This document shows, one piece after another, positions 1 to 15,495 of a stretch of DNA of 24,000 nt (its first letter is position 1; each line of letters opens with the position of its first letter). Source of the DNA: Psittacicella hinzii. GTDB taxonomy: Bacteria > Pseudomonadota > Gammaproteobacteria > Enterobacterales > Psittacicellaceae. The stretch spans positions 1 to 24,000 of the forward strand of contig NZ_NRHC01000040.1 of NCBI RefSeq assembly GCF_003585885.1. The letters run 5' to 3'. A program made the translations under genes and the position numbers. Under the pieces are notes generated by a model, which saw only the letters and a list, made by a program, of their open reading frames with translations, was not told where the DNA came from and searched no databases.

Positions 1-135
1 GTGGTACTTATTTTTTATTTCAACTCCTAATAATTTTTTAGGGTGTTTATGGTCAAATAATTAATGACGTTAAATTTTTACACACTTTTATGCAATGAAA
101 ATCAACTAGTTAGATTTTATCACTCAATCACTATA

Positions 136-165
136 TTGACTACTAATCACATTTTGGGGTATTAT
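136..165 (+). promoter_or_regulatory. Candidate sigma70 promoter for the first island genes
   Basis: TTGACT (136-141), an 18-nt spacer, then TATTAT (160-165). ATCAC/AATCAC occurs three times (119-123, 126-131, 145-150) around the -35 box. This is sequence pattern only. Confidence 0.35.
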
Positions 166-272
166 ATGGTTGTAAAGAGAAGATTACAAACTTCTCAATG
201 GTCAAAAAAAAGATAAGTTACAGAGTTTAAAAAATCAAAAATCTACAACTTATCAAACAGGAATTTAAATCT

Positions 273-698
273 ATGAGCTTCTTTAAAAATTTAAAAAGCA
301 ATAAGGTGCAATTAAGATCCTACCTATTAAGACATCTATACAATGACTTAACTTCATTTAGTGAAAACTATACCGTTAGGGCTTACAGATTGTTTTGGGT
401 TGAAGCTGATGACTATATGCCTAACGATGTTATGAGTATAGATGTTAACTTTAAATCGGTTCATCTTTTAAAGATTAGAAAATCAACTGATCCGAATATT
501 GATGAAGAATATCGCAGACAGTGTAATCGAATTTTTAAATCTTTAGACAAAGGGAAATTAAGATACTTTCATTATTACGTAGTTTTATCAAATGGTGAAA
601 AACGTACCAATGTAGATGAAGATTTGAAAACATACGTAAAAGTCAAATACGATGATTTTACAGATGTAGATAACTACAATTGCAACCAATCAAACTAG
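273..698 (+). CDS. Hypothetical protein, 141 aa, no recognisable family
   Basis: Long ORF with an AGGA motif upstream of the ATG. Its leader shares motifs with the leader of the next gene. Confidence 0.6.
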   Translation: MSFFKNLKSNKVQLRSYLLRHLYNDLTSFSENYTVRAYRLFWVEADDYMPNDVMSIDVNFKSVHLLKIRKSTDPNIDEEYRRQCNRIFKSLDKGKLRYFHYYVVLSNGEKRTNVDEDLKTYVKVKYDDFTDVDNYNCNQSN

Positions 699-741
699 TG
701 AAACTAAAAGATAAGTCACAATCAAATACAGGACAACAAAT

Positions 742-1422
742 ATGAGTAAAATTTATTTTACATTTGAAGAGCAAGATATTATCAACAAAGAAATCGATGA
801 GGCTTGGAATAAATTATTAGAGCAGTACGAAAATATAAATTTCGATGAACTACTTTATACTTTACGTAATCTTTTTGATTATCTTAACTTTGACTATGAT
901 GATTATGGAATAAATTACCTTAAGTTAGCCATAGAAAGATTTGATTTAAGAGAGTATAGTAAAATCGAACCTCAATTATTACATCATACTAAAGAAATCA
1001 CAAGTAAGTACATAGGAGCTGGAGCTGGTTCTATTAGATCGGGTATTGAAGATTTTGAAAATTTAGCTTCAAAATTAAATCTTGTTTTTAATATAAATGA
1101 ACAGTTAAAAGAGCTTCTAACTCTTGCTAATAATGATAATTATGATCGTTCTAAAATATGGAAAATCTACGACTATCATAGATCTTGGTTACCTAGAAAG
1201 ATTGATTTAATACGTGATACTTCTAAAAAGAGCGTTGAGTATGAATTAGTAAGAAGCTTATTTATAATTGATGACGCTCATCCTAGAGGGGGGCACTGTG
1301 TTAGTAGCATGTCGACAATATCTTACGGGGTAGATGATAATCTTTATGTTAGAAATGAACATTTATGGGAAACATATAAAAAAACAAAGCTACTGCATGC
1401 CAAGAAACTAAATAAACTATAA
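742..1422 (+). CDS. Hypothetical acidic helical protein, 226 aa, paralogue of 1434-2054
   Basis: ORF with AGGA 9 nt upstream of the ATG. The central block FDLREYSKIEPQLLHHTKEITSKY...LNLVFNINEQLKELL aligns with FDKQEFSKAEIFISHSKEIASKH...LNMLFKIDERIKKIL of the next ORF. Confidence 0.7.
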   Translation: MSKIYFTFEEQDIINKEIDEAWNKLLEQYENINFDELLYTLRNLFDYLNFDYDDYGINYLKLAIERFDLREYSKIEPQLLHHTKEITSKYIGAGAGSIRSGIEDFENLASKLNLVFNINEQLKELLTLANNDNYDRSKIWKIYDYHRSWLPRKIDLIRDTSKKSVEYELVRSLFIIDDAHPRGGHCVSSMSTISYGVDDNLYVRNEHLWETYKKTKLLHAKKLNKL

Positions 1423-1433
1423 GGATTTTTACA

Positions 1434-2054
1434 ATGAAGATGAAAATGAAAAATTACGATTTAACAGTTTTAGAAAGAAGTGTAATCTGTTACGAAGCAG
1501 AGAAAGCTGAAGAAACCTTAAGAGAATGGGACGATAATTTTACAGATTTTGATATTCTTTTTAGAAAAGTACTAACTGCTGAAACTAAAGAAGAATATAG
1601 TCAAAATTTAAATTGCATTAAGGAAAAGTTTGATAAGCAAGAATTTAGTAAGGCTGAAATATTTATAAGTCATTCTAAAGAAATCGCTAGCAAACATAAA
1701 AGCACTGGGCTAGTATTTGGCGCTCTGTTAGAACTTGAAAATGTAGTTTCAGACTTAAATATGCTTTTCAAAATCGATGAAAGAATTAAAAAAATTCTAG
1801 CTAATTTGGAAGAAGAGGGAAAAGGTAATGATGAGTTTGTTAATAAATTAAAACTAGTTAGGGAAGCAACTCGTACTGTACGCACTGCTCACGAAGATAC
1901 CCCAGAATATAAATTATTAGAGGACTTAAAAGTGATTAAATGTGCTCTTTCTCAATTTGCTCATTTGGTTAATGTAATCATATGGCATGGACAAATTGAT
2001 AGTAGTGAAATTAATAGATTAAATATTATGCTAACAAATATAAGTAAAGTTTAA
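1434..2054 (+). CDS. Hypothetical protein, 206 aa, paralogue of 742-1422
   Basis: Begins 11 nt after the previous stop, with AGGA upstream. It is homologous to the preceding ORF across the central block. The start lies in an ATGAAGATGAAAATGAAA run, so the exact Met is ambiguous. Confidence 0.7.
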   Translation: MKMKMKNYDLTVLERSVICYEAEKAEETLREWDDNFTDFDILFRKVLTAETKEEYSQNLNCIKEKFDKQEFSKAEIFISHSKEIASKHKSTGLVFGALLELENVVSDLNMLFKIDERIKKILANLEEEGKGNDEFVNKLKLVREATRTVRTAHEDTPEYKLLEDLKVIKCALSQFAHLVNVIIWHGQIDSSEINRLNIMLTNISKV

Positions 2055-2090
2055 AAGAATATTACTAACAGTAATTAGTTTATAAAAAAA

Positions 2091-2116
2091 CACTAAGGGG
2101 TGGAGCCCCCTTAGTG
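2091..2116. terminator. Perfect 10-bp GC-rich hairpin (CACTAAGGGG / loop TGGAGC / CCCCTTAGTG) flanked by A7 upstream
   Basis: The inverted repeat was read directly. The A-run at 2084-2090 becomes a U-tail only for minus-strand transcripts. On the + strand the hairpin has no U-tail. Confidence 0.5.
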
Positions 2117-2147
2117 CCACATAAAACATAATTACTAAATTGCCTAC
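2111..2147 (+). repeat. Copy 1 of a conserved intergenic junction element (TTAGTGYCASATAAAACATAATTA...CCTAC)
   Basis: ttagtgccacataaaacataattactaaattgcctac matches 4761-4795 at about 31 of 37 positions with one 2-nt gap. It lies upstream of the gene at 2189. Confidence 0.6.
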
Positions 2148-2188
2148 TTTAAAAGGCGTAAACCCACTTAATTACGAGGAGTAATAAA

Positions 2189-2506
2189 ATGGATATTAAA
2201 GATCTTTATAGATCTTACCCTGATTATAGCATAGAAGAGCAGGAGAAGTATATAGCTCTTATTATTAATACTATGCAAAATAACTTAGATACTCTTAAGT
2301 ATTTAATTGCTAATCATTTTGAGCTTTTTAAAACTGATGAGTATTTATCTTTAGAAGTCCTTGCTAAATATCAGGCTGATATAGCTGAAAATTTTGATTA
2401 TAAAATAGATTTGTTAATGAAAGCTAGCGAGGATTTTTCTGAGTTTGAACGCAATTTTAAGGTTGAAAAAGGGGTATTAACCTACAAAAAAACTGAAAAA
2501 AATTGA
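2189..2506 (+). CDS. Hypothetical small acidic protein, 105 aa
   Basis: ORF with a strong GAGGAG SD 7 nt upstream of the ATG. The sequence is rich in D and E. Confidence 0.7.
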   Translation: MDIKDLYRSYPDYSIEEQEKYIALIINTMQNNLDTLKYLIANHFELFKTDEYLSLEVLAKYQADIAENFDYKIDLLMKASEDFSEFERNFKVEKGVLTYKKTEKN

Positions 2507-2513
2507 GAATATT

Positions 2514-2660
2514 ATGAAAAGTAAAAAGAAATTAATTAAAAGTTACAACGAAGTTATTAGTTCTCTAATAATCACAAAATTAGCCTTAGATTATGAAGAT
2601 AGGGAAGATATCGATGAAAAATTAATAGTAAATATAAAATCAGGTAAAGAAGAACTTTAA
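2514..2660 (+). CDS. Possible small protein, 48 aa (MKSKKKLIKSYNEVISSL...KSGKEEL)
   Basis: Found by manual translation and too short for the supplied ORF track. It fills the gap between 2506 and 2676 exactly, starting 7 nt after the upstream stop and ending 15 nt before the next start. The SD is weak. Confidence 0.4.
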   Translation: MKSKKKLIKSYNEVISSLIITKLALDYEDREDIDEKLIVNIKSGKEEL

Positions 2661-2675
2661 TTAAGGGATAAGATA

Positions 2676-3074
2676 ATGGCTAGAAAATCAGAAGACGAAA
2701 GACTTCGTCAGGTTATGGTGTTGCCAATTCTAACTCTAGTAAATAACTTAACCATAGAAGTGTCTAATCTGAAGAAAATGGTCGAAGATCTTCAAAAAAT
2801 ACATTTTGATACAGTTAATGATGTCAAGCCGTTTGCAAATGCTGTGGCTATTGCAAACGCGGCTCCTAGCCTCGACGAGGATTATATCGCATTATCTGAA
2901 GTTTGTAAACGTATAGGTGTACGTCGTGGAGATTATTTAGCTAGAGCTGAAATAGAAGTGGGGTATCCAAAGCCTGTGAGTATAGGCAAGGTTTTATTTC
3001 TTACTAGAGTGCAGTTTGCACATTTGCTCAATAATATTGAGAAAAAGAATAAAGCTAAAGCTTTAAGGAAATAA
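2676..3074 (+). CDS. AlpA/excisionase-family (MerR-like winged HTH) DNA-binding protein with an approximately 65-aa N-terminal helical extension
   Basis: The C-terminal segment LSEVCKRIGVRRGDYLARAEIEVGYPKPVSIGKVLFLTRVQFAHLL fits the AlpA/Xis pattern (L-EV---G-sR-----------FPKPV-lG-----w---ev--wl). An AAGGGA SD lies upstream. Confidence 0.6.
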   Translation: MARKSEDERLRQVMVLPILTLVNNLTIEVSNLKKMVEDLQKIHFDTVNDVKPFANAVAIANAAPSLDEDYIALSEVCKRIGVRRGDYLARAEIEVGYPKPVSIGKVLFLTRVQFAHLLNNIEKKNKAKALRK

Positions 3075-3099
3075 CAGTGGTATAAGCTAAAGCTTTAGC
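3052..3099. repeat. Two identical 14-nt repeats AAGCTAAAGCTTTA (3052-3065 and 3084-3097), each containing the palindrome TAAAGCTTTA; the second extends to the 14-bp perfect palindrome GCTAAAGCTTTAGC
   Basis: Read directly. The spacing is 32 bp. Copy 1 lies within the last codons of the AlpA-like gene and copy 2 is intergenic, upstream of 3177. Confidence 0.5.
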
Positions 3100-3176
3100 C
3101 ATGTTATTTGATAACAACTTTAGCATAGAAACGCTTACGCGTTTATAAAGACATCAGAGAAAATCAGAGTTCAAAA

Positions 3177-3740
3177 ATGAGATTACCAAAGGAAGATATT
3201 GAGCGATTTTGTACTTATAGCCTTGAAGTTGTTTTAAGGGATCTATATCAGTGCTTTAGCATTTTTAGCAGACAACGTTACGGGTTGAAAGAGCTATGTG
3301 ACAACGTAATGGGTTATATGGATTTTAAACAAAATTCTCATTTGGAAAAGTTCGGAAGCTTAAAAGATTATAACTTTTCTAGTGATATAAATAATCTTGA
3401 ACTTTTCTTTTATATCATGACTAAAAAATTGGTAAAAACATGGATACGAGAATTATCTTGGAGTGAAGATTGTTTTTATTCTTTTGATAGCGAAACTATG
3501 GAAACAGTTAAAAAAACAGTTACTGCAACTGGAAATAAAGCTGATCTTAGCTGTCGATTATCTGATGTATTTCTTACCTTTGCGTCATGGTTGACTGATT
3601 GCTTTAGAGATGTAGAAGATAATTATGGAGTAAGCATTTCTATCGTTAAATGTCATAATTTTGTTTCTTATGATTTCTCATCTTCTGAATTCTGTAAGTT
3701 TGCAGTCAAATTTCATGGAGTAAAACTGGACTACTTATAG
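3177..3740 (+). CDS. Hypothetical protein, 187 aa, possible distant member of the 4270/4809/5418 paralogue family
   Basis: Long ORF. It shares the CF...RYG and D-V-F/L-x-x-F motifs with the 4809 ORF at similar relative positions. This is a weak by-eye match. Confidence 0.6.
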   Translation: MRLPKEDIERFCTYSLEVVLRDLYQCFSIFSRQRYGLKELCDNVMGYMDFKQNSHLEKFGSLKDYNFSSDINNLELFFYIMTKKLVKTWIRELSWSEDCFYSFDSETMETVKKTVTATGNKADLSCRLSDVFLTFASWLTDCFRDVEDNYGVSISIVKCHNFVSYDFSSSEFCKFAVKFHGVKLDYL

Positions 3741-3742
3741 TT

Positions 3743-3919
3743 ATGTATAAATTTTATTTAGTACCTAAAAAGGAGTCAGAATGTGTAAGTAATAAGGTAG
3801 CTAGCCGTTTCTTTTTAAGAATGCTTTACAACCTTATGCAGAATAAAAATGTATATGTTAATGAAGAAGTCATAACTCTTGAACCTTGCGGAAAATACGG
3901 CTTTTATTTTCTGCCGTAA
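3743..3919 (+). CDS. Possible small protein, 58 aa (MYKFYLVPKKESECVSNK...GKYGFYFLP)
   Basis: Found by manual translation. The ATG lies 2 nt after the stop of 3177-3740, and the stop is embedded in the hairpin at 3899-3927. It falls just under the length cut-off of the ORF track and has no clear SD. Confidence 0.35.
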   Translation: MYKFYLVPKKESECVSNKVASRFFLRMLYNLMQNKNVYVNEEVITLEPCGKYGFYFLP

Positions 3920-3927
3920 TAAAAGCC
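3899..3927 (+). terminator. AT-rich hairpin GGCTTTTATT / 9-nt loop / AATAAAAGCC followed by TTTAAAA
   Basis: Perfect 10-bp inverted repeat read directly. An alternative pairing TACGGC/GCCGTA overlaps it. The U-tail is short, so terminator function is uncertain. Confidence 0.3.
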
Positions 3928-3955
3928 TTTAAAATAACTTTGAGGCATTACGACA

Positions 3956-4309
3956 GTGCAGAATATTTATCTATTTACGAAACACTTACCTCCTCCAAGA
4001 GCTTATAAAAACTTTTTCTGGGATTTAGTTTATTCTCATAAAGATTTAGGCACTTATATTTTTGAAGAAGAGGATTATCCTCTAGAACTAGCTATGTATA
4101 TATGTATAGATCTTTTTGATTTCTTATCTAAAAATTTAGTTTTAACCTTAAACAGTATAGGTGAACTTTATTTTAAATCTTCTTATTGTTACCATAGTTT
4201 TGAAGATGATATAACTGGGATAGAAGTCTCACTCCCTTGTGTCTTAAATCTTGAAGAGGTTAACGGAAAATGCAAAATTGTAATACACAAAGAAGCGACA
4301 GTATCATAA
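3956..4309 (+). CDS. Hypothetical protein, 117 aa (GTG start)
   Basis: ORF with GAGG 10 nt upstream of the GTG. No family recognised. Confidence 0.5.
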   Translation: MQNIYLFTKHLPPPRAYKNFFWDLVYSHKDLGTYIFEEEDYPLELAMYICIDLFDFLSKNLVLTLNSIGELYFKSSYCYHSFEDDITGIEVSLPCVLNLEEVNGKCKIVIHKEATVS

Positions 4310-4764
4310 GCCAGATTAACTCACTTACCAAGACATTTCAGAATGATGACCGTACTCTTTTAAAGGGAGCTCTTCATCGCATGCTTGCATGGTATGACAA
4401 GCTATCAGATAGGTATATGGATTATTATGCCGTTAGTGGTGATCATTATGTAATGTTGTATTTACTAGAGCAACTCATACGTTGTAAATACAATAATGAA
4501 CAAGAGCTATCAGTTGCTAAAGAAATAGTTAAAAACTTAAGACGTTATTATATCTTCACACTAACTTCTCCAAAAGGATCACAAGAGTGTGATGAGTATA
4601 TTAAAGATATGATTTTAGAATTTAAGCAATATATTGGTCGCAATTTAATTGTTGTTTTAGGGGAACAGTGGAGTGTTATTTTTAGAGATGAAGATTTTAA
4701 TATTCTCAAAGATAATGACCTGACCACAAGTGCATATTTTAAAATCGAGAAGATAACCAATTAG
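4270..4764 (+). CDS. Hypothetical protein, 164 aa, paralogue-family member
   Basis: ORF that overlaps the previous ORF by 40 nt if the first ATG is used, so the true start is uncertain. LLEQLIRCKY aligns with LLEKLIECYD of the 5418 ORF, and the D-M-I-L-E-F-x-x-x-I motif is shared. Confidence 0.6.
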   Translation: MQNCNTQRSDSIISQINSLTKTFQNDDRTLLKGALHRMLAWYDKLSDRYMDYYAVSGDHYVMLYLLEQLIRCKYNNEQELSVAKEIVKNLRRYYIFTLTSPKGSQECDEYIKDMILEFKQYIGRNLIVVLGEQWSVIFRDEDFNILKDNDLTTSAYFKIEKITN

Positions 4765-4795
4765 TGTCAGATAAAACATAATTATAAAACCTACA
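4761..4795 (+). repeat. Copy 2 of the conserved intergenic junction element
   Basis: ttagtgtcagataaaacataattataaaacctac. It starts at the stop codon of 4270-4764 and ends 13 nt before the GTG at 4809. Confidence 0.6.
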
Positions 4796-4808
4796 AGAGG
4801 GAATTAAA

Positions 4809-5378
4809 GTGTATAAGCACAACTGGAAATATTTAGATAGAGATCTTAAAGCTTTAGCTAAAGATCTACTAAATGACATAAAACAGAGAAATGTGGAAGC
4901 TTTAGCAATTTGTTTTCACAATAATCTGGAAAGCCTTGAAAGAGTTAGGTACGGTCATAAATTAAATCTTGAAGACTTTACTACCATGCAATTTGGAGTC
5001 AATGATTTGCTTTACAGTTATATCGCTATTTTTGTTATGCAAGGGTACGATAAGAAAATGGGACTGGAAGAGTTTCAGAAACGTCAAACAAAAATTAACA
5101 TGTTAATTGGTAATCTACCATTGTTATTTTCTACTGATAGGCATATCTATGGAATTAGAGATAAAGAGCTAAAGCTAATTCTGGAAGATGTGCTGAATGA
5201 GTTTATCTTATTTATACGTACAGATCTGAAGAAAGTTGTAGGTAATTTTAAATTAGAGTTTAAGGACTGTTTTAATAACAAGATTAGTGGTAAAGATCTT
5301 CAGACATTAGCATGCTTTTACACTGCAAATCCAACTAATGAAGAATATCCAACTATCGACCCTTATCATTTTATTTGA
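4809..5378 (+). CDS. Hypothetical protein, 189 aa (GTG start), paralogue-family member
   Basis: ORF with an AGAGGGA SD upstream. The motifs CFHNNLESLERVRYG and LEDVLNEFILFI are shared with neighbouring ORFs. Confidence 0.65.
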   Translation: MYKHNWKYLDRDLKALAKDLLNDIKQRNVEALAICFHNNLESLERVRYGHKLNLEDFTTMQFGVNDLLYSYIAIFVMQGYDKKMGLEEFQKRQTKINMLIGNLPLLFSTDRHIYGIRDKELKLILEDVLNEFILFIRTDLKKVVGNFKLEFKDCFNNKISGKDLQTLACFYTANPTNEEYPTIDPYHFI

Positions 5379-5417
5379 CCAGTCATAACGTGTAACAATT
5401 TGTAATAAGGAATTTAA

Positions 5418-6023
5418 ATGTCTATTTCTCAATTAAGTGCTTTTCAATTAAGTAAAGAAGAACTTAAACAGTTCGAAGAGCAAATGGTAGGGCTTAGATA
5501 CTTTTTTAATAATGATATTAATAACGCCGTACTGTTAAAATGCTTTAACAATTTATATGCAAGCTTAAAGAAGCACAAAGCCCCAAGTGTAGCTCTATTT
5601 TCTGAAACAAAAATAATGGTGCTCAGAAGTGACATGTTACTTGAGAAACTTATAGAATGCTATGATAGTGAATGGTGCAGAGGTAAATCTACCTATAAGC
5701 TATCACAATCGAAGCTTATCAACGCAATTTTTAAAATATACGATCATGATCTTAATTACCTAGAGGATATAAACTCAACTCTAGTAGGCAGAGCTGCGCA
5801 GGATATTATCTGGAAGTTTGAGGATAAAATTAGGGATTGGTTTAGAGGTACTTTAGCAACTGTAGGCTTAGATCTTGAATATTACAACGACGCACTTGAG
5901 TATATAGAAGATCTCAATAAGGTGAAAGATGATAGTTTTGATTTATATTCTATCTATAACCCTATGATTTTTTACTTTCGTATAGAAACAATTAAATCAG
6001 TATTAGAGAAAGAAAGTTATTAG
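5418..6023 (+). CDS. Hypothetical acidic protein, 201 aa, paralogue-family member
   Basis: ORF with an AAGGA SD 8 nt upstream. The motifs CFNNLYASLKK, LLEKLIECYD and QDIIWKFEDKI are shared with 4270 and 4809. Confidence 0.7.
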   Translation: MSISQLSAFQLSKEELKQFEEQMVGLRYFFNNDINNAVLLKCFNNLYASLKKHKAPSVALFSETKIMVLRSDMLLEKLIECYDSEWCRGKSTYKLSQSKLINAIFKIYDHDLNYLEDINSTLVGRAAQDIIWKFEDKIRDWFRGTLATVGLDLEYYNDALEYIEDLNKVKDDSFDLYSIYNPMIFYFRIETIKSVLEKESY

Positions 6024-6035
6024 CAATTTTATACC

Positions 6036-6131
6036 ATGTACTTCGAAACGACTTTAGTTATATTTATTCTTATTTTTATGCTTGCTATAGAGAGCAAAGC
6101 GGTCGACCATTTGCTTAATATGGTGGTATAG
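6036..6131 (+). CDS. Possible 31-aa hydrophobic peptide (MYFETTLVIFILIFMLAIESKAVDHLLNMVV)
   Basis: Found by manual translation. It has one predicted TM-like stretch and lies between the 5418 gene and the terminator at 6142-6179. No SD. Confidence 0.3.
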   Translation: MYFETTLVIFILIFMLAIESKAVDHLLNMVV

Positions 6132-6141
6132 AGAAACTTTG

Positions 6142-6179
6142 AGGTTAGCTTATAGGCAACTTTAGCTGACCTTTTTTTT
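6142..6179 (+). terminator. Rho-independent terminator candidate (AGGTTAGCT / 13-nt loop / AGCTGACCT + T8)
   Basis: A 9-bp stem with one G-U pair, followed by eight T residues. Read directly. Confidence 0.55.
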
Positions 6180-6225
6180 AAACTTAACTTTTTTGAGCTT
6201 TTGTTGAAAGCTAACAGGTAATTAT

Positions 6226-6303
6226 ATGAAATTTAATTATAATACCGCCATGTCGGTGATAGACTTCATTCTTGTCTGCCTTGTCATTATATCTTGCTAT
6301 TGA
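6226..6303 (+). CDS. Possible 25-aa hydrophobic peptide (MKFNYNTAMSVIDFILVCLVIISCY)
   Basis: Found by manual translation, with a weak AGG upstream. A second hydrophobic stretch (LICLLGVWAIVLAVDMIVEAYNSI, 6300-6374) continues in the -1 frame. Confidence 0.3.
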   Translation: MKFNYNTAMSVIDFILVCLVIISCY

Positions 6304-6413
6304 TTTGTTTATTAGGTGTTTGGGCTATAGTGTTGGCTGTTGACATGATTGTAGAAGCATACAACAGTATCTAAACTATAAAGACACTTTCAAGTTTAAG
6401 GATTAGTATTAAT

Positions 6414-6656
6414 ATGAAACCAGTAAAACATGAAGCTCCCATGAAATATGAAGATCCTCGAGATTTAAATGAATTTCAACTTTCAACATGGGCAGAGTAT
6501 AGTTTAAAATTTATAAGTATTTCGTTTAATATTGCGTTTGTTTTGATATGTATAAGTGCTTTAATAATAGCGGTTTTATTTTTTGTTTCTATAATTGGAG
6601 AACTATCTTTAAAAGTTGTTGAGATATACAATTTAATCAAGATCTCCTTAAGCTAA
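6414..6656 (+). CDS. Small membrane protein, 80 aa
   Basis: Track ORF. A hydrophilic N-terminus is followed by a roughly 30-residue hydrophobic segment FISISFNIAFVLICISALIIAVLFFVSIIG. Confidence 0.5.
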   Translation: MKPVKHEAPMKYEDPRDLNEFQLSTWAEYSLKFISISFNIAFVLICISALIIAVLFFVSIIGELSLKVVEIYNLIKISLS

Positions 6657-6684
6657 GTAATAATCACACATTGTGAGGAAAAAA

Positions 6685-6798
6685 ATGGATAGATATCTCA
6701 AAATCTTTTTGTTCATAGGAATATGCTGGTTTGGTATTGAACTAATAAACCTAATAGCTGAACTTGTAAAACTTTACATCTATATATCTAATAAATAA
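6685..6798 (+). CDS. Possible 37-aa single-pass membrane peptide (MDRYLKIFLFIGICWFGIELINLIAELVKLYIYISNK)
   Basis: Found by manual translation. A strong GAGGA SD lies 6 nt upstream of the ATG, and the ORF fills the gap before the primase gene. Confidence 0.5.
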   Translation: MDRYLKIFLFIGICWFGIELINLIAELVKLYIYISNK

Positions 6799-6830
6799 GG
6801 ATAAAATAACTAAGCAAAAGACTGGAAGAT

Positions 6831-8237
6831 ATGGTATATAAGCGATATTTTGCAGTACCTTTTGCCCAAGTCAAAAGTTTTGTTAAATTAGCTTATACTC
6901 AAACAAATATTTTGCCATTTAGTGCAAAGCCAAAATTTGATTATGAATTAAAATTGTGGTATCTAGAAAGCTCTGACGAGCGTATTCTTAACTGTGAATT
7001 ACAATTGCTTAATGATTACTTGCCTAAGCATGACACAAGTAGCGAAGTTATTGATTATAACGATCTAAGTAACTGGGTAAGTAATAAATTATCTGAGGTA
7101 GGTGTTAGAGATAACAAGGGAATTGTGCTGGATCTATCAAGCGGTAGCACAAAGTGGCGACGATGTGAAGTTCTGAACGGAAAGCGTGGGAATTTAGATA
7201 GTGGGTATTTACTAAAATACAACGGAAAAGTAGTTAATTTAATTATTTATAATTATAAACAAGAAGAAACACTTGAAAAATTTACATACGTAGTTGGACG
7301 AAATAATAGCAATACGGAATTAAGTAAAGAAGAAAAAGAAGAGTTAAAGCTAAAGCAACTAAATACGAAAGCTTATTATCAACAGAAAACGGAAGAAATT
7401 AAGAGTAAATATCAGGACGATAATAGAGCAAACATTGAAATTGAACATTGGTTTAAGCAGAACTCATCAAGCCTAGCTAAGAACAGTAATATAGTACCTT
7501 ACTATCTATTATCAAAAGGTTTGTACTATGATGACAATATCATGGTTTCACAAAGAAATATATTAGCTCCCGTTGGTAGTGATGTAAAAATTGAAATAGG
7601 TGATCTAATTGTACCAATCTACGACTGTAACAGTTTACTTGTGAAATCTTTTCAAATTATTAAACCTAACGGATTAAAAAGATTTCTTAAGAATTATAGC
7701 GTAAAGGACGGTATTAATTTTATCCATAAGAAACAATTTAATAAAAAGGCTATCTTATGCGAGGGGTATGCTACAGGTGCCAGTATAAAGCAAGGTTTTG
7801 ACCTAATACAATGTAATGATATAGATATTATTGTTTGCTTTAGCTTACATCACTTAGAGAACATTGCAAAACAATTAGGTCAAAGTTGCAAGTACAAGGA
7901 AATCGTAGTGCTTGCTGATGATGATAGAAATGAAAACGGGAGACCTACAAGAGATCTCCCGCCTATGAGTAATTACAATTTTGGATCAAGATCATGCACT
8001 GTGAAGTGGATCTTACCTCCGATAACTGACGAGGAGAAAAAAAATCTCTACAATTGCTTAAACACTAAAGTTGTTAATACTAATGAGTTTCGCGAAGCAA
8101 ATAGAGCTAAATTGCTCTCGTCAAGTTTTTACAAAATAAAAGATTTTAATGACCTTTATTTTTGCTTTTTGGTATTAGACTATAGTAATGGTTTAGCCTC
8201 TATAGTAAACAGAATGGTGTCTGCTTTTGGAGCTTAA
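6831..8237 (+). CDS. Plasmid/phage-type DNA primase: Toprim domain protein without a helicase domain, 468 aa
   Basis: Toprim signature ILCEGYATGASI (acidic Glu motif) ... IVCFSLHHL ... VVLADDDRNENG (DxD motif). This resembles TraC/Sog and P4-alpha-like primases (xAEGYATAAS ... AFDAGNL ... AADND). The N-terminus YFAVPF...LKLWY resembles the short DUF5710-type module found ahead of plasmid primases. The middle segment WRRCEVLNGKRGNLDSGYLLKYNGK resembles the primase recognition segment. Confidence 0.65.
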   Translation: MVYKRYFAVPFAQVKSFVKLAYTQTNILPFSAKPKFDYELKLWYLESSDERILNCELQLLNDYLPKHDTSSEVIDYNDLSNWVSNKLSEVGVRDNKGIVLDLSSGSTKWRRCEVLNGKRGNLDSGYLLKYNGKVVNLIIYNYKQEETLEKFTYVVGRNNSNTELSKEEKEELKLKQLNTKAYYQQKTEEIKSKYQDDNRANIEIEHWFKQNSSSLAKNSNIVPYYLLSKGLYYDDNIMVSQRNILAPVGSDVKIEIGDLIVPIYDCNSLLVKSFQIIKPNGLKRFLKNYSVKDGINFIHKKQFNKKAILCEGYATGASIKQGFDLIQCNDIDIIVCFSLHHLENIAKQLGQSCKYKEIVVLADDDRNENGRPTRDLPPMSNYNFGSRSCTVKWILPPITDEEKKNLYNCLNTKVVNTNEFREANRAKLLSSSFYKIKDFNDLYFCFLVLDYSNGLASIVNRMVSAFGA

Positions 8238-8355
8238 AACGTTGTCAATTGAGTACTTTTGTGGTATTCTAAAAAGATAATTCTTTGGTTACCAAAATGT
8301 TAACGTGTTTTTAAAATACTCCGAAGCTATCAGGTTTTTAAAGCTTCTCTCATAA

Positions 8356-8364
8356 TGGTATACT
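8356..8364 (+). promoter_or_regulatory. Extended -10 promoter candidate for dapD (TGgTATACT)
   Basis: TG at 8356-8357 and TATACT at 8359-8364, 68 nt upstream of the dapD ATG. There is no good -35 box. Confidence 0.35.
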
Positions 8365-8432
8365 ATTAACTTTATTCCTCCAAGTTTTTAATTTGGATAA
8401 AATCAACAGAATATTTATTCTTAAGGTCAAAC

Positions 8433-9266
8433 ATGTCTTACAATTTAGCAGAATTACAAGCTTTTATCGAAGCTGAATTCGAAAACAGAGCTTCTATTAA
8501 CCCACAAACAGCTAGCGATGATTTAAAAGCAGCAATTGAATATGTAATCAACCAATTAGATAAAGGTGCATTACGTGTAGCTGAAAAAATCGACGGTAAC
8601 TGGGTAACTCACCAATGGTTAAAGAAAGCTGTACTTTTATCTTTCCGCATTAAAGAGAACCAAATTATTGAAGGTGACTCAACTAATTACTACGATAAAG
8701 TTGATACTAAATTTAAATCTTACACTCAAGAAGATTTTGCTAACGCAGGTATCCGTGTAGTTCCAAATGCAGTTGCACGTAAAGGTTCACACATTGCTAA
8801 AAATGCAATTTTAATGCCTTCATATGTAAATATCGGTGCATATGTAGACGAAGGTACAATGGTTGATACATGGGCTACAGTTGGTTCATGTGCACAAATC
8901 GGTAAAAACGTACACTTATCAGGTGGTGTAGGTATCGGTGGTGTATTAGAGCCATTACAAGCTAATCCAACTATTATTGAAGACAACTGTTTTATCGGTG
9001 CTCGTTCTGAAATTGTTGAAGGCGTAATCGTTGAAGAAGGTTCTGTAATCTCTATGGGTGTTTTCATCGGTCAATCAACTAAAATTTACGATCGTGAAAC
9101 TGGTGAAATCCACTATGGTAGAGTACCAGCTGGTTCAGTAGTTGTTTCTGGTAGCTTACCTTCTAAATGTGGTAAATACAGCTTATACTGCGCTGTGATT
9201 GTGAAAAAAGTTGACGCAAAAACTCGTGGTAAAGTAGGTATTAACGAATTATTACGTTTAGACTAA
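8433..9266 (+). CDS. dapD: 2,3,4,5-tetrahydropyridine-2,6-dicarboxylate N-succinyltransferase
   Basis: Long blocks are essentially identical to E. coli DapD as I remember it ([29 protein letters not shown]; [66 protein letters not shown]; [28 protein letters not shown]). Confidence 0.95.
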
Positions 9267-9286
9267 TACAATAATACAAAAAAAAG

Positions 9287-9319
9287 GCAAGTCATTTTAC
9301 TGTGACTTGCTTTTTTTTT
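9287..9319 (+). terminator. dapD rho-independent terminator (GCAAGTCA / loop / TGACTTGC + T9), with an A-run upstream so possibly bidirectional
   Basis: Perfect 8-bp stem and T-run read directly, 20 nt after the dapD stop. Confidence 0.8.
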
Positions 9320-9331
9320 AATTAAGCATAT

Positions 9332-9367
9332 AAAAAAGTCTAGGTAGAAACTAACCTAGACTTTTTT
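9332..9367 (-). terminator. matP terminator hairpin (GTCTAGGT / loop / ACCTAGAC) flanked by A6 and T6
   Basis: Perfect 8-bp stem. The matP stop codon (9356-9358) lies inside the stem. A T-run follows the hairpin on the minus strand. Confidence 0.7.
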
Positions 9368-9781
9368 ATATGATTCTAATTTTTCTTTATCAACAAACTT
9401 TTCTAACAATAAAATAGCTTCGCTTAAGCTAACACCTTTAGCTGTTGAAAGTTCTGATAAAACTTTCCAAGCTTCATATTCTAAAAATACGCTCTTTTTA
9501 GCATATAAAACTACTTCATTGTCATCAGCTCTTTTTCTTCGAGCACGTACAGCCATATCTAGCTTTTTAACTAAATCTGGGTTTAAATGCTCTTCTACCC
9601 ATTTTTCGATTTGCTCTGGATACTCTCGTGAATTTATTAATTCTAAAGAAAACTGTCTAACCATTTCTTGTTCTATATACTTGGTTATGTTTTCCCCTTT
9701 TTGGTATTTAGAATTTAAATAATTCCATTTCCATTTAGCTTCACGTACAGGGAGCTTTTGATGTTTGCGATATTTCTTCAT
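9356..9781 (-). CDS. matP: Macrodomain Ter protein MatP homologue, 141 aa
   Basis: [23 protein letters not shown] aligns with E. coli [43 protein letters not shown] aligns with [32 protein letters not shown] aligns with RGKTLSETIVQLI. Confidence 0.85.
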   Translation of the reverse strand: [141 protein letters not shown]

Positions 9782-9817
9782 AAGAGAATATATTGTTAAG
9801 CGCTAACTTAACAAAAT

Positions 9818-10211
9818 TGGTGGAGCTGAGGGGATTTGAACCCCTGTCCGAAATCAGTCCATCCCAAGTTCTACATGTTTATTCTTATTTGTAATTTCAT
9901 TAGCTGGCAGTAAATAAGACGAAAGCCCAACTAACTAGATAGAATAAGATTTCATGTTTAAACGTCCTATCAGCATTTAAACACTAACTAGTTTATAAGA
10001 TTATAAGCATCGTATATCCCCTATGACCTACTAGTGGAGTAAGGAGAAGATGGCTTTACACAGGTTATTAAGCTGCTAAAGCAACGCCGTTGTTATTTGA
10101 ACGGCCAAAGAAAGCATTGTCTGCATTTATATTTATTCGAAGTTTTTAAAAGCTCTTCAACTTTACATGCCCTTGAAACTTCCATAATCCCGTCGAATCC
10201 AGAACAGCCCC
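9818..10211 (-). ncRNA. ssrA: tmRNA (SsrA), about 394 nt, one-piece
   Basis: On the minus strand the 5' end is GGGGCTGTTCTGGATTCGACGGGATT and the 3' end is GGACAGGGGTTCAAATCCCCTCAGCTCCACCA. The acceptor stem has G3-U. The internal tag frame GCA GAC AAT ... GCT TTA GCA GCT TAA TAA (10124 down to 10071) predicts the tag ADNAFFGRSNNNGVALAA. Confidence 0.95.
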
Positions 10212-10247
10212 GAAATCTTTGTTCATACTCAAGTTTTAAGTATATTT

Positions 10248-10276
10248 ATTATAACAAATGAAAGTTGTAAATGCAA
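10248..10276 (-). promoter_or_regulatory. ssrA promoter: TTGCAT - 17 nt - TATAAT
   Basis: On the minus strand, TTGCAT lies at 10276-10271, the spacer is exactly 17 nt, and TATAAT lies at 10253-10248. The promoter sits about 37 nt upstream of the mature 5' end, consistent with a processed precursor. Confidence 0.7.
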
Positions 10277-10312
10277 ATTTTGCCCTTTTACGACAAGTTC
10301 TACTAGCCATAG

Positions 10313-11257
10313 CTACTTCTTCTTTTTCTTAGCATTAAAGTCTAGTTTTACTTTAGAAGCACTCTCTGCAGAAAATTCTTCATGTAACTGTTTTAAATGT
10401 TCATTAGCTACATGGGTATATATTTGCGTGGCTTGTAAACTAGCATGCCCTAATAAAGATTGGACACTACGAATATCAGCTCCATGATTTAACATATGCG
10501 TAGCAAAGCTATGACGCAAGCTATGAGGACCAAAACCAGTCAGATCAAAATTAAAACATTTTTCAGCGTAATTACGTATTCTTTGCCAAAAGTTAGCTCT
10601 GGTCATAGGATTACCAGAAGCATTAACAAAAATATAGTCACTTGTTACTTCTTGCTGATGACGATAATGCGTTAGATAATTATTTAAATGAAAATAAGCT
10701 AAATTACTTACCGGCACAATACGCGTTTTAGAGCCTTTACCTTTAATACGCAAGGTTAAGTTTTTGCTATCTAATTGATTAAAAGTTAAGTTAACTAACT
10801 CTGAAATCCTTAACCCTGAAGAGTAAATTAGCTCTAGCATAGCACGATCTCGTAATCCCTTTGCCTTACTAAGATCAGGTTGCTTTAACAATAATTGCAT
10901 CTGCTCTTCTGTTAAGTAGACCATTTTAGGACGAATAGCTTTCGGTAATGACATCTTCAAAGTAGGATCTACCGAAATTATCCCTTGAGCAAAAAGATAT
11001 CTAAAAAACAAACGTATAGTTACTAACCAATGACGTAAAGTATTTACCGAAATATTTTCTTCTAGAGCTTGAATAAAGTAAAGATTGATATAATCCGTAT
11101 CCATTTCAGCAAAATTAAGATTTTGCTGTTCATAGTTCCATTTGTAAAATTTACTCAGGTTGTAGTAGTAAGAAGTAACTGTATTCTCACTCTTTTGTTC
11201 CACCAAGGATACGTTCTGGATAAAGCTATTTATTAATTGAGCATTATTCTTTGACAT
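10313..11257 (-). CDS. Tyrosine recombinase, XerD/XerC family, 314 aa with a lysine-rich tail
   Basis: All catalytic positions are present: GLRISEL (Arg), GKGSKTRIVP (Lys), HSLRHSFATH (His-x-x-Arg), LLGHASL (His), TQIYTHV (Tyr). The C-terminus THVANEHLKQLHEEF is closest to the XerD pattern THVATERLRQLHQQ. Confidence 0.8.
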   Translation of the reverse strand: MSKNNAQLINSFIQNVSLVEQKSENTVTSYYYNLSKFYKWNYEQQNLNFAEMDTDYINLYFIQALEENISVNTLRHWLVTIRLFFRYLFAQGIISVDPTLKMSLPKAIRPKMVYLTEEQMQLLLKQPDLSKAKGLRDRAMLELIYSSGLRISELVNLTFNQLDSKNLTLRIKGKGSKTRIVPVSNLAYFHLNNYLTHYRHQQEVTSDYIFVNASGNPMTRANFWQRIRNYAEKCFNFDLTGFGPHSLRHSFATHMLNHGADIRSVQSLLGHASLQATQIYTHVANEHLKQLHEEFSAESASKVKLDFNAKKKKK

Positions 11258-11497
11258 ATTTACATTAAAAACTTGTTACTCTAGATTAAACTAAATTATT
11301 TATCGTCTTACTCCTCAACATTAATAATTACCCTGACAATAGCAACTGTTGAAGCAATGATAATGACAATGAAAACAAGTCTCTTCTTTAGCGTAAACTA
11401 CAGTAACAAGACAATAACATAGAGAGCCAATATGGTTATCTCTTAAATGACTTTCTTATCGTCTAATGACTAAACTATTTTATCTACTTTAAGAGAA

Positions 11498-11535
11498 AAC
11501 TCCTCTAGATTAAATCTAAAGGAGTTCTTTTTTTT
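11498..11535 (-). terminator. Long hairpin terminator after the acid phosphatase gene (AACTCCTCTAGAT / TAA / ATCTAAAGGAGTT), with T8 on the + side
   Basis: A 13-bp stem with one mismatch, 12 nt beyond the stop at 11547. On the minus strand it is followed by TTTTCTCTT. The + strand has a cleaner T8 tail, so it may act bidirectionally. Confidence 0.65.
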
Positions 11536-11546
11536 AGAAAAAAATT

Positions 11547-15494: not shown

Positions 15495-15495
15495 A

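What the first reader, a model, noticed from the sequence alone, without database searches (positions are those of the whole stretch)
1..8237. Dense one-directional island of unrecognisable genes, marked only by an AlpA-like HTH and a helicase-less Toprim primase
About 19 ORFs lie on one strand with very short gaps, several of 1-15 nt. I can place none of the roughly 15 larger products in a known family. The only recognisable domains are two mobile-element hallmarks, the AlpA/Xis-type HTH and a TraC/P4-alpha-like Toprim primase. No capsid, conjugation, toxin, integrase or known defence genes are visible. Many products are small, acidic and helical, and they occur as diverged tandem paralogues with repeated junction sequences. 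This fits cargo of a satellite- or PICI-like element, or the leading region of an integrative conjugative element, where anti-defence or defence genes cluster. That function is a hypothesis, not something the sequence shows.
Basis: partly seen in the sequence, partly recalled or inferred. Interest (0 to 1): 0.75.

Follow-up and report, generated by a model that had tools for sequence, protein, structure and literature searches.

The report
Orphan-gene island ending in plasmid-type primase
Upstream of dapD, one lineage of the bird bacterium Psittacicella hinzii carries at least 8 kb of real, same-direction genes that match nothing in about 15 billion known proteins except a helicase-less primase of the conjugative-plasmid/phage-P4 type, so this is most likely part of an integrated mobile element whose cargo function is unknown.

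Summary
The core observation holds. Positions 273-8237 carry 15 co-directional ORFs at 89% coding density, and all show coding-frame codon bias. Eleven exceed 100 codons, against 0.4 expected in shuffles. Seven cargo ORFs were searched exhaustively against 1.84 billion representatives of about 15 billion proteins. They hit only themselves and one in-window paralogue. Pfam, PHROGs, NCBIfam and PADLOC give nothing for the ORFs each was run on, except the last gene.

The last gene (6831-8237) is a true TraC/Sog/P4-alpha-family Toprim primase with EGYATG and DDD motifs. It has no helicase domain. Its nearest relatives are helicase-less primases in conjugative transfer regions.

The island is absent from the same locus in the other sequenced P. 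hinzii lineage, which has rpiR-recO directly upstream of dapD.

Three details fail. The 'AlpA-like HTH' has no tool support. Only one paralogue pair is significant. The ORF count is 15 (12 annotated), not 19.

The left boundary, any integrase and any att site lie outside the window and could not be retrieved.

Best reading: this is the visible part of a lineage-specific island derived from a mobile element, and it resembles a plasmid/ICE leading or establishment region more than a P4/PICI satellite. The anti-defence role is untested. Interest is moderate to low.

The parts
1..272 (.). Non-coding left edge of the window. The island's true left boundary is not visible.
   Evidence: All six frames are closed within 20 codons of the edge. 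ORF 64-216 (50 aa) is doubtful. No similarity to the recO-dapD spacer of L082.
273..698 (+). ORF1, 141 aa, no family hit (CKF54_03675)
   Evidence: Frame-0 codon bias. No Pfam, PHROG or PADLOC hit. Singleton cluster on one contig.
742..1422 (+). ORF2, 226 aa, orphan; paralogue A
   Evidence: Exhaustive search finds only itself and ORF3. Paralogy with ORF3: 29% identity, E 2e-10, z 19. AF2 pLDDT 44.
1434..2054 (+). ORF3, 206 aa, orphan; paralogue B, 11 nt after ORF2
   Evidence: It is P0011, confirmed by sequence.
2089..2118 (.). GC-rich perfect hairpin (10-12 bp stem) in the 134-nt gap between ORF3 and ORF4. Probable transcription-unit boundary.
   Evidence: RNA fold of 2055-2188 has z -4.7, with 0 of 200 shuffles as stable. 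The T-run lies on the minus-strand side.
2111..2134 (+). Copy 1 of the 24-nt junction motif TTAGTGYCASATAAAACATAATTA, 55 nt upstream of the ORF4 start
   Evidence: There are only two copies in 24 kb, both inside the island.
2189..2506 (+). ORF4, 105 aa, acidic (pI 4.7), orphan
2514..2660 (+). ORF5, 48 aa. Apparently not in the NCBI annotation; coding status is likely but unproven.
   Evidence: Best codon score in frame 0. No family hit.
2676..3074 (+). ORF6, 132 aa, basic (pI 9.6).
   Evidence: Only a self hit among 5.8 billion proteins. No Pfam, NCBIfam or PDB hit. No meaningful BLASTP similarity to P4 Vis or E. coli AlpA. AF2 gives pLDDT 73-89 for residues 1-40 and below 50 for 55-132.
3177..3740 (+). 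ORF7, 187 aa, orphan
3743..3919 (+). ORF8, 58 aa, 2 nt after ORF7; apparently not in the NCBI annotation
   Evidence: no hits.
3956..4309 (+). ORF9, 117 aa, acidic (pI 4.8), orphan
4270..4764 (+). ORF10, 164 aa, orphan; overlaps ORF9 by 40 nt
4761..4784 (+). Copy 2 of the 24-nt junction motif, 25 nt upstream of the ORF11 start
4809..5378 (+). ORF11, 189 aa, orphan
5418..6023 (+). ORF12, 201 aa, orphan (CKF54_03720)
6024..6413 (+). 390-nt stretch with no ORF of 40 aa or more. It holds three small hydrophobic ORFs of 23-31 aa; their coding status is unknown.
   Evidence: No Rfam hit. No iterons or tandem repeats of note.
6414..6656 (+). ORF13, 80 aa, one predicted hydrophobic helix
   Evidence: No family hit.
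6673..6798 (+). ORF14, 41 aa, hydrophobic; apparently not in the NCBI annotation; weakest coding signal of the set
6831..8237 (+). Helicase-less Toprim primase of the TraC/Sog/P4-alpha (EGYATA) family, 468 aa (CKF54_03730). Catalytic core is about residues 216-402, with GDLIVPIYD, EGYATG (311-316) and DDD (363-365).
   Evidence: Pfam Toprim_3 E 2.9e-5, 24.8 bits, below the gathering score of 27.2. PHROG 2249, 35358 and 510 'DNA primase', E 1.9e-15 to 2.3e-5. BLASTP to P4 alpha residues 155-268 E 4e-11, to the pCC31 408-aa DUF5710/Toprim protein E 8e-11, and to P0002 E 2e-14 over residues 27-366. No Walker A motif. No PADLOC hit.
8238..8432 (.). Right junction and dapD promoter region. Alignable homology with the island-free lineage starts at 8431.
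   Evidence: Promoter-like sites at 8242-8270 and 8337-8364. No repeat shared with 1-272.
8433..9266 (+). dapD, the first conserved chromosomal gene on the right flank (not part of the island)
   Evidence: Pfam THDPS_N_2 and Hexapep. 92.7% aa identity to L082 dapD.

Best explanation
Window 273-8237 is the visible right-hand part of a lineage-specific accessory island of mobile-element origin. It sits immediately upstream of dapD in the CKF54 lineage of Psittacicella hinzii.

ANATOMY (shown): there are 15 real, co-directional genes. Gaps, a GC hairpin and a repeated 24-nt junction motif suggest about five transcription units: 273-2054, 2189-3074, 3177-4764, 4809-6023 and 6414-8237. The last gene is a helicase-less Toprim primase of the TraC/Sog/P4-alpha (EGYATA) family. 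Of the other 14 genes, eight were shown to have no homologue outside this island and the rest match no family library.

MECHANISM (inferred): the block is an establishment or leading-region-like module of an integrated plasmid, ICE or mobilisable element. After transfer or induction it would be transcribed in one direction. The primase would lay primers on the element's own DNA, so that complementary-strand or element replication does not depend on host DnaG, as established for RP4 TraC, ColIb Sog and P4 alpha. The small orphan proteins upstream would be element-specific establishment or host-interference factors. ORF6 may be a DNA-binding regulator.

Whether the element is still mobile is unknown, because its left end (integrase, att, relaxase/oriT if any) lies outside the window.
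For: Coding reality:
- All 15 ORFs score best in frame 0; 11 ORFs reach 100 codons against 0.43 expected.

Orphan status:
- An exhaustive phmmer search of 7 cargo ORFs against 1.84 billion representatives returned only the 7 self hits and the in-window paralogue.
- ORF6 found only itself.
- All looked-up island proteins are singleton clusters on one 42.2-kb contig.
- No cargo ORF gave a tblastn hit in 72,556 plasmids or 50,697 phages.

Accessory status:
- Two assemblies of the other P. hinzii lineage have rpiR-recO directly upstream of dapD. The same dapD-matP-ssrA-xerD-e(P4) order follows, and no island protein matches them.

Primase identity:
-.

Plasmid or ICE flavour:
- 99 of 105 plasmid records hit by the primase are typed conjugative.
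- In pCC31 the homologue is a 408-aa helicase-less protein next to the MobP1 relaxase.
- The only database relative (P0002) lies between a T4 coupling protein and a NikA/relaxase pair.
- Phage relatives are mostly annotated as primase-helicase fusions such as P4 alpha, 777 aa.

Composition:
- GC is slightly lower (about 0.30 vs 0.33-0.36) and the fit to host synonymous codon use is marginally poorer (p 0.04).
Against: - No integrase, relaxase, T4SS, ssb, psiB, ardA, oriT-like or att sequence is visible in the 8.2 kb.
- No direct repeat links the two ends seen.
- Composition is nearly host-like: 4-mer correlation 0.89-0.94 with the flanks. That fits either long residence or an element native to this clade, and it equally fits an immobile remnant.
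- The comparison genome is very divergent (xerD 69% and matP 63% aa identity). Absence there shows lineage specificity, not a recent insertion.
- Primase relatives also occur in phages with slightly higher scores (54-57 vs about 50 bits), so a phage origin is not excluded.
- The Pfam Toprim_3 score is just below the gathering threshold.
- Functions of the cargo are pure inference.
Confidence: 0.5

Rival explanations
1. Early/replication region of a prophage or a phage satellite (P4-like or PICI-like). The orphans would be phage early host-takeover genes. The primase would start element replication after induction. The integrase and structural or packaging genes would lie to the left of the window.
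For: The primase core is 31% identical to the P4 alpha primase domain. It hits three PHROG 'DNA primase' families and 15 phage records at up to 57 bits. One-directional arrays of small orphan genes before a replication gene are typical of phage early operons (general knowledge).
Against: No cargo ORF reaches significance in any PHROG; the best is E 0.0019, to families of unknown function. None hits any phage genome by tblastn. There is no helicase domain or Walker A motif, whereas most of the phage relatives listed, including P4 alpha, are annotated as helicase fusions or as larger primase proteins. No AlpA, Vis, integrase, Sid, Psu, Delta, terS or capsid gene was found. The viral-contig scan with the primase found no relative.
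Confidence: 0.25
2. An immobile, decaying remnant of an old insertion that no longer functions as an element. The genes persist by drift or have been co-opted individually.
For: Composition and codon use are nearly host-like. No mobility gene or att repeat is visible. The 390-nt stretch 6024-6413 holds only fragmentary small ORFs.
Against: Fifteen intact ORFs at 89% density show strong frame-specific codon bias and no visible pseudogenes. This argues for continued selection or a recent origin. The primase catalytic motifs are intact.
Confidence: 0.2
3. A defence locus in which the Toprim protein is a nuclease (OLD, PARIS AriB or Gabija-like) rather than a primase, and the orphans are its partners.
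For: Toprim domains occur in several defence nucleases (general knowledge). Islands next to mobile-element genes often carry defence systems.
Against: No PADLOC hit for the Toprim protein or for any of the 14 other island ORFs scanned. No ATPase partner and no Walker A motif. The protein carries the primase-specific EGYATG motif and aligns to the P4 alpha and plasmid primase cores.
Confidence: 0.04
4. Fast-evolving native chromosomal genes of Psittacicella that are not of mobile-element origin.
For: Host-like codon usage. The genus is poorly sampled, so orphans are expected.
Against: The block is absent from the syntenic locus and from the whole proteome of the sister lineage, which is in the searched collection. 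A plasmid/phage-type primase has no housekeeping role.
Confidence: 0.04

Closest known systems
TraC (RP4/IncP), Sog (ColIb-P9/IncI) and the DUF5710-Toprim primases of Campylobacter pTet/pCC31-type and Neisseria conjugative plasmids
   Same: Shares the Toprim core with the EGYAT(A/G) and acidic DxD motifs. It is helicase-less and of similar size (408-aa pCC31 protein vs 468 aa). It is the last recognisable gene of a one-directional block of small unknown genes. BLASTP E 8e-11 to the pCC31 protein and 2e-14 to P0002, which lies in an IncP-like Tra1 region.
   Different: Identity is only 21-28%. There is no ArdC-N domain and no HMM-detectable DUF5710 domain. No relaxase, coupling protein or T4SS lies nearby within the 8 kb seen. 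The gene is chromosomal, next to dapD.
Satellite phage P4 (alpha primase-helicase, Vis/AlpA, integrase, sid-delta-psu)
   Same: The primase domain is homologous: 31% identity over 121 aa, with the same GDLVVPLYD and EGYATA motifs. Small unknown ORFs precede the primase gene on the same strand in P4 too.
   Different: P4 alpha is 777 aa with a helicase and an ori-binding part; here the protein is 468 aa with no Walker A motif. No similarity to Vis. No integrase, cI, epsilon, sid, delta or psu homologue. No ori/crr-type iterons.
Leading regions of conjugative plasmids and ICEs, which carry anti-defence and establishment genes (own knowledge of Samuel et al. 2024, Nature; not read here)
   Same: Dense, strictly one-directional array of small, often acidic, poorly conserved genes together with a plasmid-type primase.
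   Different: None of the usual markers (ssb, psiB, ardA/klcA, ardC, Frpo/ssi hairpins next to oriT) was found. Adjacency to an oriT or relaxase cannot be checked.
Gram-negative PICIs (int-alpA-pri/rep-packaging modules)
   Same: Integrated, one-directional, with a replication gene and a possible small DNA-binding protein upstream.
   Different: No integrase, no statistically supported AlpA, no primase-helicase/rep pair, and no terS, ppi or capsid-remodelling genes.

Membership tests
EGYATA-type Toprim primases (TraC/Sog/P4 alpha; Pfam Toprim_3) | Toprim domain recognised by profile | tested here: inconclusive
   Pfam PF13362 E 2.9e-5 but 24.8 bits, below the 27.2 gathering score. PHROG 2249 'DNA primase' E 1.9e-15.
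EGYATA-type Toprim primases (TraC/Sog/P4 alpha; Pfam Toprim_3) | E-G-Y-A-T-A motif and downstream acidic DxD motif, aligned with known members | tested here: met
   EGYATG at residues 311-316 and DDD at 363-365 align with EGYATA / ADRD of P4 alpha, EGFATA / ADND of pCC31, and EGYATA / AEDD of P0002.
EGYATA-type Toprim primases (TraC/Sog/P4 alpha; Pfam Toprim_3) | Primer synthesis activity | not testable with these tools
   Needs a biochemical assay.
P4-like satellite | Primase fused to a helicase/ori-binding domain (alpha) | tested here: not met
   468 aa. The homology to alpha ends at alpha residue 268. No Walker A motif.
P4-like satellite | P4-type integrase and Vis/AlpA excisionase | tested here: not met
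   No integrase in 1-8237. xerD at 10313-11257 is housekeeping and syntenic in L082. There is no alignment to Vis and only a chance-level match to AlpA (E 4.0). The left flank is unseen, so an integrase outside the window is not excluded.
P4-like satellite | Capsid-size and helper-control genes (sid, delta, psu, epsilon) | tested here: not met
   No significant PHROG hit and no tblastn hit to phage records, including P4.
PICI | int - alpA - pri/rep - packaging module order | tested here: not met
   None of these was recognised except a primase lacking rep/helicase.
AlpA/Xis HTH (PF05930 / HTH_17) | Profile or pairwise similarity to family members | tested here: not met
   No Pfam hit at E<=10 on the isolated C-terminal domain. 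BLASTP to E. coli AlpA E 4.0, and no alignment to P4 Vis. The AF2 model is too poor to judge the fold.
Conjugative plasmid/ICE leading region | Lies next to oriT/relaxase and enters the recipient first | not testable with these tools
   No relaxase or oriT in the window.
Conjugative plasmid/ICE leading region | Marker genes ssb, psiB, ardA/klcA, ardC | tested here: not met
   No Pfam, PHROG or NCBIfam hits.
Conjugative plasmid/ICE leading region | Plasmid-type helicase-less primase, with all genes co-directional | tested here: met
Known anti-phage defence systems (PADLOC-DB 2.0) | Any component model matched | tested here: not met
   Best E-values 0.012-0.038 at 12 bits, which is noise.
Genomic island (accessory, horizontally acquired block) | Presence/absence polymorphism at a conserved locus | tested here: met
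   Absent between recO and dapD in GCA_042659645.1 and GCA_003585935.1 with the right-flank synteny conserved. Caveat: that lineage is distant.
Genomic island (accessory, horizontally acquired block) | Flanking direct repeats, a tRNA-type target, and an integrase | tested here: inconclusive
   No repeat between 1-272 and 8238-8432. The tmRNA gene is 1.6 kb away with dapD and matP in between, so it is not the junction. The left end is unseen.

The most novel reading that the evidence does not exclude
The roughly 14 orphan genes may be a set of entirely new anti-defence or host-takeover protein families. They would be carried by a previously undescribed kind of small integrative element of Psittacicella/Pasteurellales-like bacteria, one that replicates or establishes itself with only a helicase-less TraC-type primase: neither a P4-like satellite nor a PICI nor a classical ICE.
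Probability: 0.12. Interest if true: 0.65.

Novelty: new member of a known kind. Interest (0 to 1): 0.33.

Why it matters
If the reading is right, this is one more lineage-restricted mobile-element island. Its value is as a compact, fully intact set of at least 14 expressed-looking genes with no detectable relative among about 15 billion proteins, tied to a plasmid-type primase. Blocks of this kind are where new anti-defence and establishment proteins have recently been found, so it is a reasonable candidate list for functional screening.

It also shows that strains named P. hinzii include two deeply divergent lineages that differ at this locus.

It does not open or settle any long-standing question by itself. 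The sequence gives no mechanism for the cargo.

Tried and rejected
1. Left extension of the contig. Exact-protein look-ups of four window proteins found nothing, so the source assembly appears not to be indexed. The Pasteurellaceae loci do not share the dapD-matP-ssrA arrangement, so they were not used.

2. A concatenated 1895-aa query in the search for homologous proteins returned nothing, not even self hits. That result is uninformative, because single-ORF queries do find self. The same trick worked in the exhaustive search.

3. Structure prediction. ORF6 alone gave mean pLDDT 56, with the putative HTH part below 50. ORF2 with its paralogue gave pLDDT 44. Both are too poor for fold searches.

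4. AlpA test by Pfam on the isolated domain, PDB, and BLASTP to P4 Vis and E. coli AlpA: all negative.

5. Further paralogy. Smith-Waterman with shuffles over 55 pairs gave one significant pair only. Five small hydrophobic ORFs near 6036-6798 show no similarity beyond composition.

6. Integration at tmRNA was rejected, because dapD and matP lie between ssrA and the island and this order is conserved in the island-free lineage.

7. The xerD-like gene as the island integrase was rejected. It scores above the cutoff of NCBIfam's generic tyrosine-recombinase subfamily model (286.2 vs 279 bits), with XerD as its best-scoring specific family (287.3 bits, below that equivalog's 329.6 cutoff). It is syntenic in L082.

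8. Rfam, iteron and tandem-repeat searches for an origin or ncRNA in the gaps found nothing beyond tmRNA.

9. The promoter scan is at background level: 45 sites found vs 44 expected.

10. The viral-contig scan with the primase found no relative.

11. Literature searches (Psittacicella; EGYATA; leading region) gave nothing bearing on this locus.

Full report
SOURCE AND LAYOUT

The window is from Psittacicella hinzii. The last island gene is NCBI protein RIY32922.1 (CKF54_03730), on a 42.2-kb contig.

All sizeable ORFs in 1-8300 are on the + strand. They are 273-698, 742-1422, 1434-2054, 2189-2506, 2514-2660, 2676-3074, 3177-3740, 3743-3919, 3956-4309, 4270-4764, 4809-5378, 5418-6023, 6414-6656, 6673-6798 and 6831-8237.

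To the right lie ordinary chromosomal genes:
- dapD (8433-9266, +)
- matP (9356-9781, -)
- the tmRNA gene (9818-10211, -)
- xerD (10313-11257, -)
- an e(P4) phosphatase, ychE, two sppA paralogues, a Dam-type methyltransferase, xseA and def

The first 272 nt are non-coding, and no gene runs off the left edge for more than 20 codons.

Yes in its core.
- Eleven + strand ORFs reach 100 codons, against a mean of 0.43 (maximum 2) in 200 shuffles of this AT-rich sequence.
- The longest minus-strand ORF is 72 codons.
- Coding density of 273-8237 is 0.89.
- Each of the 15 ORFs has its best per-codon likelihood in frame 0 under a codon table built from the flanking housekeeping genes.
- Gaps of 2, 7, 11 and 15 nt and one 40-nt overlap are present.
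- The NCBI annotation appears to hold 12 CDS here, inferred from the consecutive accessions RIY32911-RIY32922 seen. 'About 19 ORFs' is therefore an overcount.

UNRECOGNISABLE GENES

Pfam, PHROGs, NCBIfam and PADLOC give no credible hit for any island ORF they were run on, other than the last gene.

I then concatenated seven cargo proteins (ORFs starting at 742, 2189, 3177, 3956, 4270, 4809 and 5418; 1189 aa). I ran an exhaustive phmmer search against 1.84 billion representatives of about 15 billion proteins.
- The only hits were the seven proteins themselves at 100% identity, plus one 206-aa protein at E 8.8e-4.
- That 206-aa protein is the window's own ORF 1434-2054.

Further checks agree.
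- ORF6 (2676-3074) found only itself among 5.8 billion sequences.
- Every island protein looked up is a singleton cluster seen on one contig.
- tblastn of all island proteins against 72,556 plasmids and 50,697 phage genomes matched only the primase segment.

The searched cargo genes are strict orphans.

THE PRIMASE

The 468-aa product of 6831-8237 scores Pfam Toprim_3 at E 2.9e-5, at 24.8 bits and just under the 27.2 gathering score. It also hits three PHROG 'DNA primase' families, best E 1.9e-15.

Pairwise BLASTP aligns it to three proteins:
- residues 252-371 to the primase domain of P4 alpha (31% identity, E 4e-11)
- residues 216-402 to the 408-aa DUF5710/Toprim protein of Campylobacter plasmid pCC31 (E 8e-11)
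- residues 27-366 to P0002, its only relative in the protein database (E 2e-14)

The alignments place GDLIVPIYD, EGYATG (311-316) and DDD (363-365) opposite the corresponding motifs of those proteins. The E-G-Y-A-T-A motif is the signature of the TraC/Sog/P4-alpha primases (own knowledge of Strack et al. 1992; not read here).

There is no Walker A motif in this or any other island ORF, and no PADLOC hit. 'Helicase-less Toprim primase' is confirmed.

Context of the relatives:
- 99 of the 105 plasmid records hit are typed conjugative.
- In pCC31 the homologue lies two genes from the MobP1 relaxase.
- P0002 lies between a type IV coupling protein and a NikA/relaxase pair.
- Phage relatives are mostly annotated as primase-helicase fusions or larger primase proteins.

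THE 'AlpA-LIKE HTH'

ORF6 has a confidently predicted long N-terminal helix and a basic pI. Its C-terminal part gave nothing.
- No Pfam hit, even at E<=10 on the isolated domain.
- No NCBIfam or PDB match.
- No BLASTP alignment to P4 Vis, and only E 4.0 to E. coli AlpA.
- AF2 pLDDT is below 50 over this part.

The stretch GYPKPVSIG does resemble the G-[FY]-P-x-P-v-x-x-G of AlpA/MerR-type excisionases by eye. That is a lead, not a result.

PARALOGUES AND REPEATS

Only ORF2/ORF3 are demonstrably paralogous: 29% identity, E 2e-10, z 19 against shuffles. The second- and third-ranked pairs are also neighbours (4270/4809 and 3177/3956), but with uncorrected p about 0.01 among 55 pairs.

One junction motif, TTAGTGYCASATAAAACATAATTA, occurs at 2111 and 4761 and nowhere else in the 24 kb. 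Each copy lies shortly upstream of the first gene after a gap.

A perfect GC-rich hairpin (2089-2118) sits in the 134-nt gap after ORF3. The RNA fold has z -4.7.

Together with the 102-nt and 390-nt gaps, this suggests about five transcription units. The generic promoter scan is at background, 45 sites vs 44 expected, so this is inference.

IS IT AN ISLAND?

The dapD protein shares a 90% cluster with that of another P. hinzii strain. That strain's contigs could be fetched.

In GCA_042659645.1 (L082) and GCA_003585935.1 (L083) the genes directly upstream of dapD are an RpiR-family regulator and recO. Further upstream are a 976-aa protein, rodZ, ispG and hisS. Downstream the order dapD-matP-tmRNA-xerD-e(P4) is the same as in the window.
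- Nucleotide homology between the window and L082 starts at 8431, two bases before the dapD start.
- No island protein has any match in L082 or L083.
- Neither recO nor rpiR is present anywhere in the window.

Two caveats apply. The two lineages are far apart (dapD 92.7%, xerD 69%, matP 63% aa identity), so this shows lineage specificity rather than a recent insertion. And the left junction is unseen.

Composition is only mildly atypical. GC is about 0.30 against 0.33-0.36, synonymous codon fit is slightly poorer (p 0.04), and 4-mer correlation with the flanks is 0.89-0.94.

WHAT IT MOST LIKELY IS

The block is the visible part of a lineage-specific island derived from a mobile element.

SHOWN:
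- real co-directional genes
- orphan status of the searched cargo
- a TraC/P4-alpha-family helicase-less primase as the terminal gene
- absence from the sister lineage's locus

INFERRED:
- The block works like the establishment or leading region of a conjugative or mobilisable element.
- It would be transcribed one way on entry or induction.
- The primase would prime the element's own DNA independently of DnaG, as known for TraC, Sog and P4 alpha.
- The small orphan proteins would serve establishment or host interference.

I put about 0.8 on 'accessory island derived from a mobile element'. I put about 0.5 on the fuller statement, including the plasmid/ICE flavour.

Rivals:
- A prophage or satellite early region (0.25). 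The primase core and gene style fit. Against it, there is no significant phage-family hit, no helicase, no AlpA/Vis, no integrase and no packaging genes.
- An immobile remnant (0.2). This overlaps with the main reading.
- A Toprim-nuclease defence system (0.04).
- Native fast-evolving genes (0.04).

COMPARISON WITH KNOWN SYSTEMS

Membership in the EGYATA primase family is met at motif and pairwise level. It is borderline by the Pfam threshold.

Membership in P4-like satellites or PICIs fails on every other defining part that could be tested.

'Leading region' cannot be tested, because adjacency to an oriT or relaxase is unknown and the usual markers (ssb, psiB, ardA, ardC) are absent.

It matches no known defence system in PADLOC.

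NOVELTY AND INTEREST

This is a new member of a known kind: an orphan-rich island from a mobile element in an undersampled host.

Fourteen consecutive genes without any detectable family, eight of them searched against about 15 billion proteins, are notable as a candidate pool. They are not by themselves surprising for mobile elements of a genus with a handful of genomes. Nothing in the sequence reveals what they do. Interest is 0.33.

The most novel reading still open is a new type of small integrative element with only a helicase-less primase, loaded with new anti-defence families. I give it about 0.12.

LIMITS

- The left flank could not be obtained.
- Both structure predictions were too poor to use.
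- The primase itself, ORF1, ORF5, ORF8, ORF13 and ORF14 were not covered by the exhaustive search.

Noticed in passing
window 9818-10211 (-): The tmRNA gene encodes an 18-residue tag, ADNAFFGRSNNNGVALAA, longer than the usual 10-11 residues. It is only 76% identical at nucleotide level to the tmRNA of the other P. hinzii lineage.
   Followed up: no
window 8433-12392 vs L082 10001-16229: Strains both named P. hinzii (CKF54 vs CKF58/JBHSSP) are deeply divergent: dapD 92.7%, xerD 69% and matP 63% aa identity. They are probably separate species. matP is called at 141 aa here against 192 aa there.
   Followed up: partly
window 11547-12392; L082 13319-16229: There is one e(P4)-family acid phosphatase/5'-nucleotidase gene in the window, but three tandem copies in the other lineage.
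   Followed up: no
window 13455-17472 (-): Two tandem SppA (signal peptide peptidase) paralogues of 692 and 658 aa whose ORFs overlap by 38 nt. The first is much more diverged from the SppA model.
   Followed up: no
window 17655-18914 (-): A 419-aa adenine methyltransferase whose Dam/type II MTase domain covers only residues ~250-416. The N-terminal ~250 aa are unassigned, and no restriction partner is evident among the neighbouring genes.
   Followed up: no
window 6024-6798: A run of small hydrophobic + strand ORFs (31, 25, 26, 80 and 41 aa) lies just upstream of the primase. Their pairwise similarity is not above what composition gives, and the three shortest may not be genes.
   Followed up: partly
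window 2089-2118: A perfect GC-rich hairpin in an otherwise 30% GC region. Its T-run is on the minus-strand side although no minus-strand gene is nearby. It could block antisense transcription, stabilise the upstream mRNA, or be a DNA-level site.
   Followed up: partly
window 18917-20752 (-): The xseA (exonuclease VII large subunit) ORF is 611 aa, and the model matches only residues 45-432. It has an unusually long C-terminal extension.
   Followed up: no
L082 8564-9850 and 3752-6682: In the other lineage, RecO is 406-428 aa with a long glutamine-rich C-terminal extension. A 976-aa protein with no Pfam hit lies between rodZ and rpiR.
   Followed up: no
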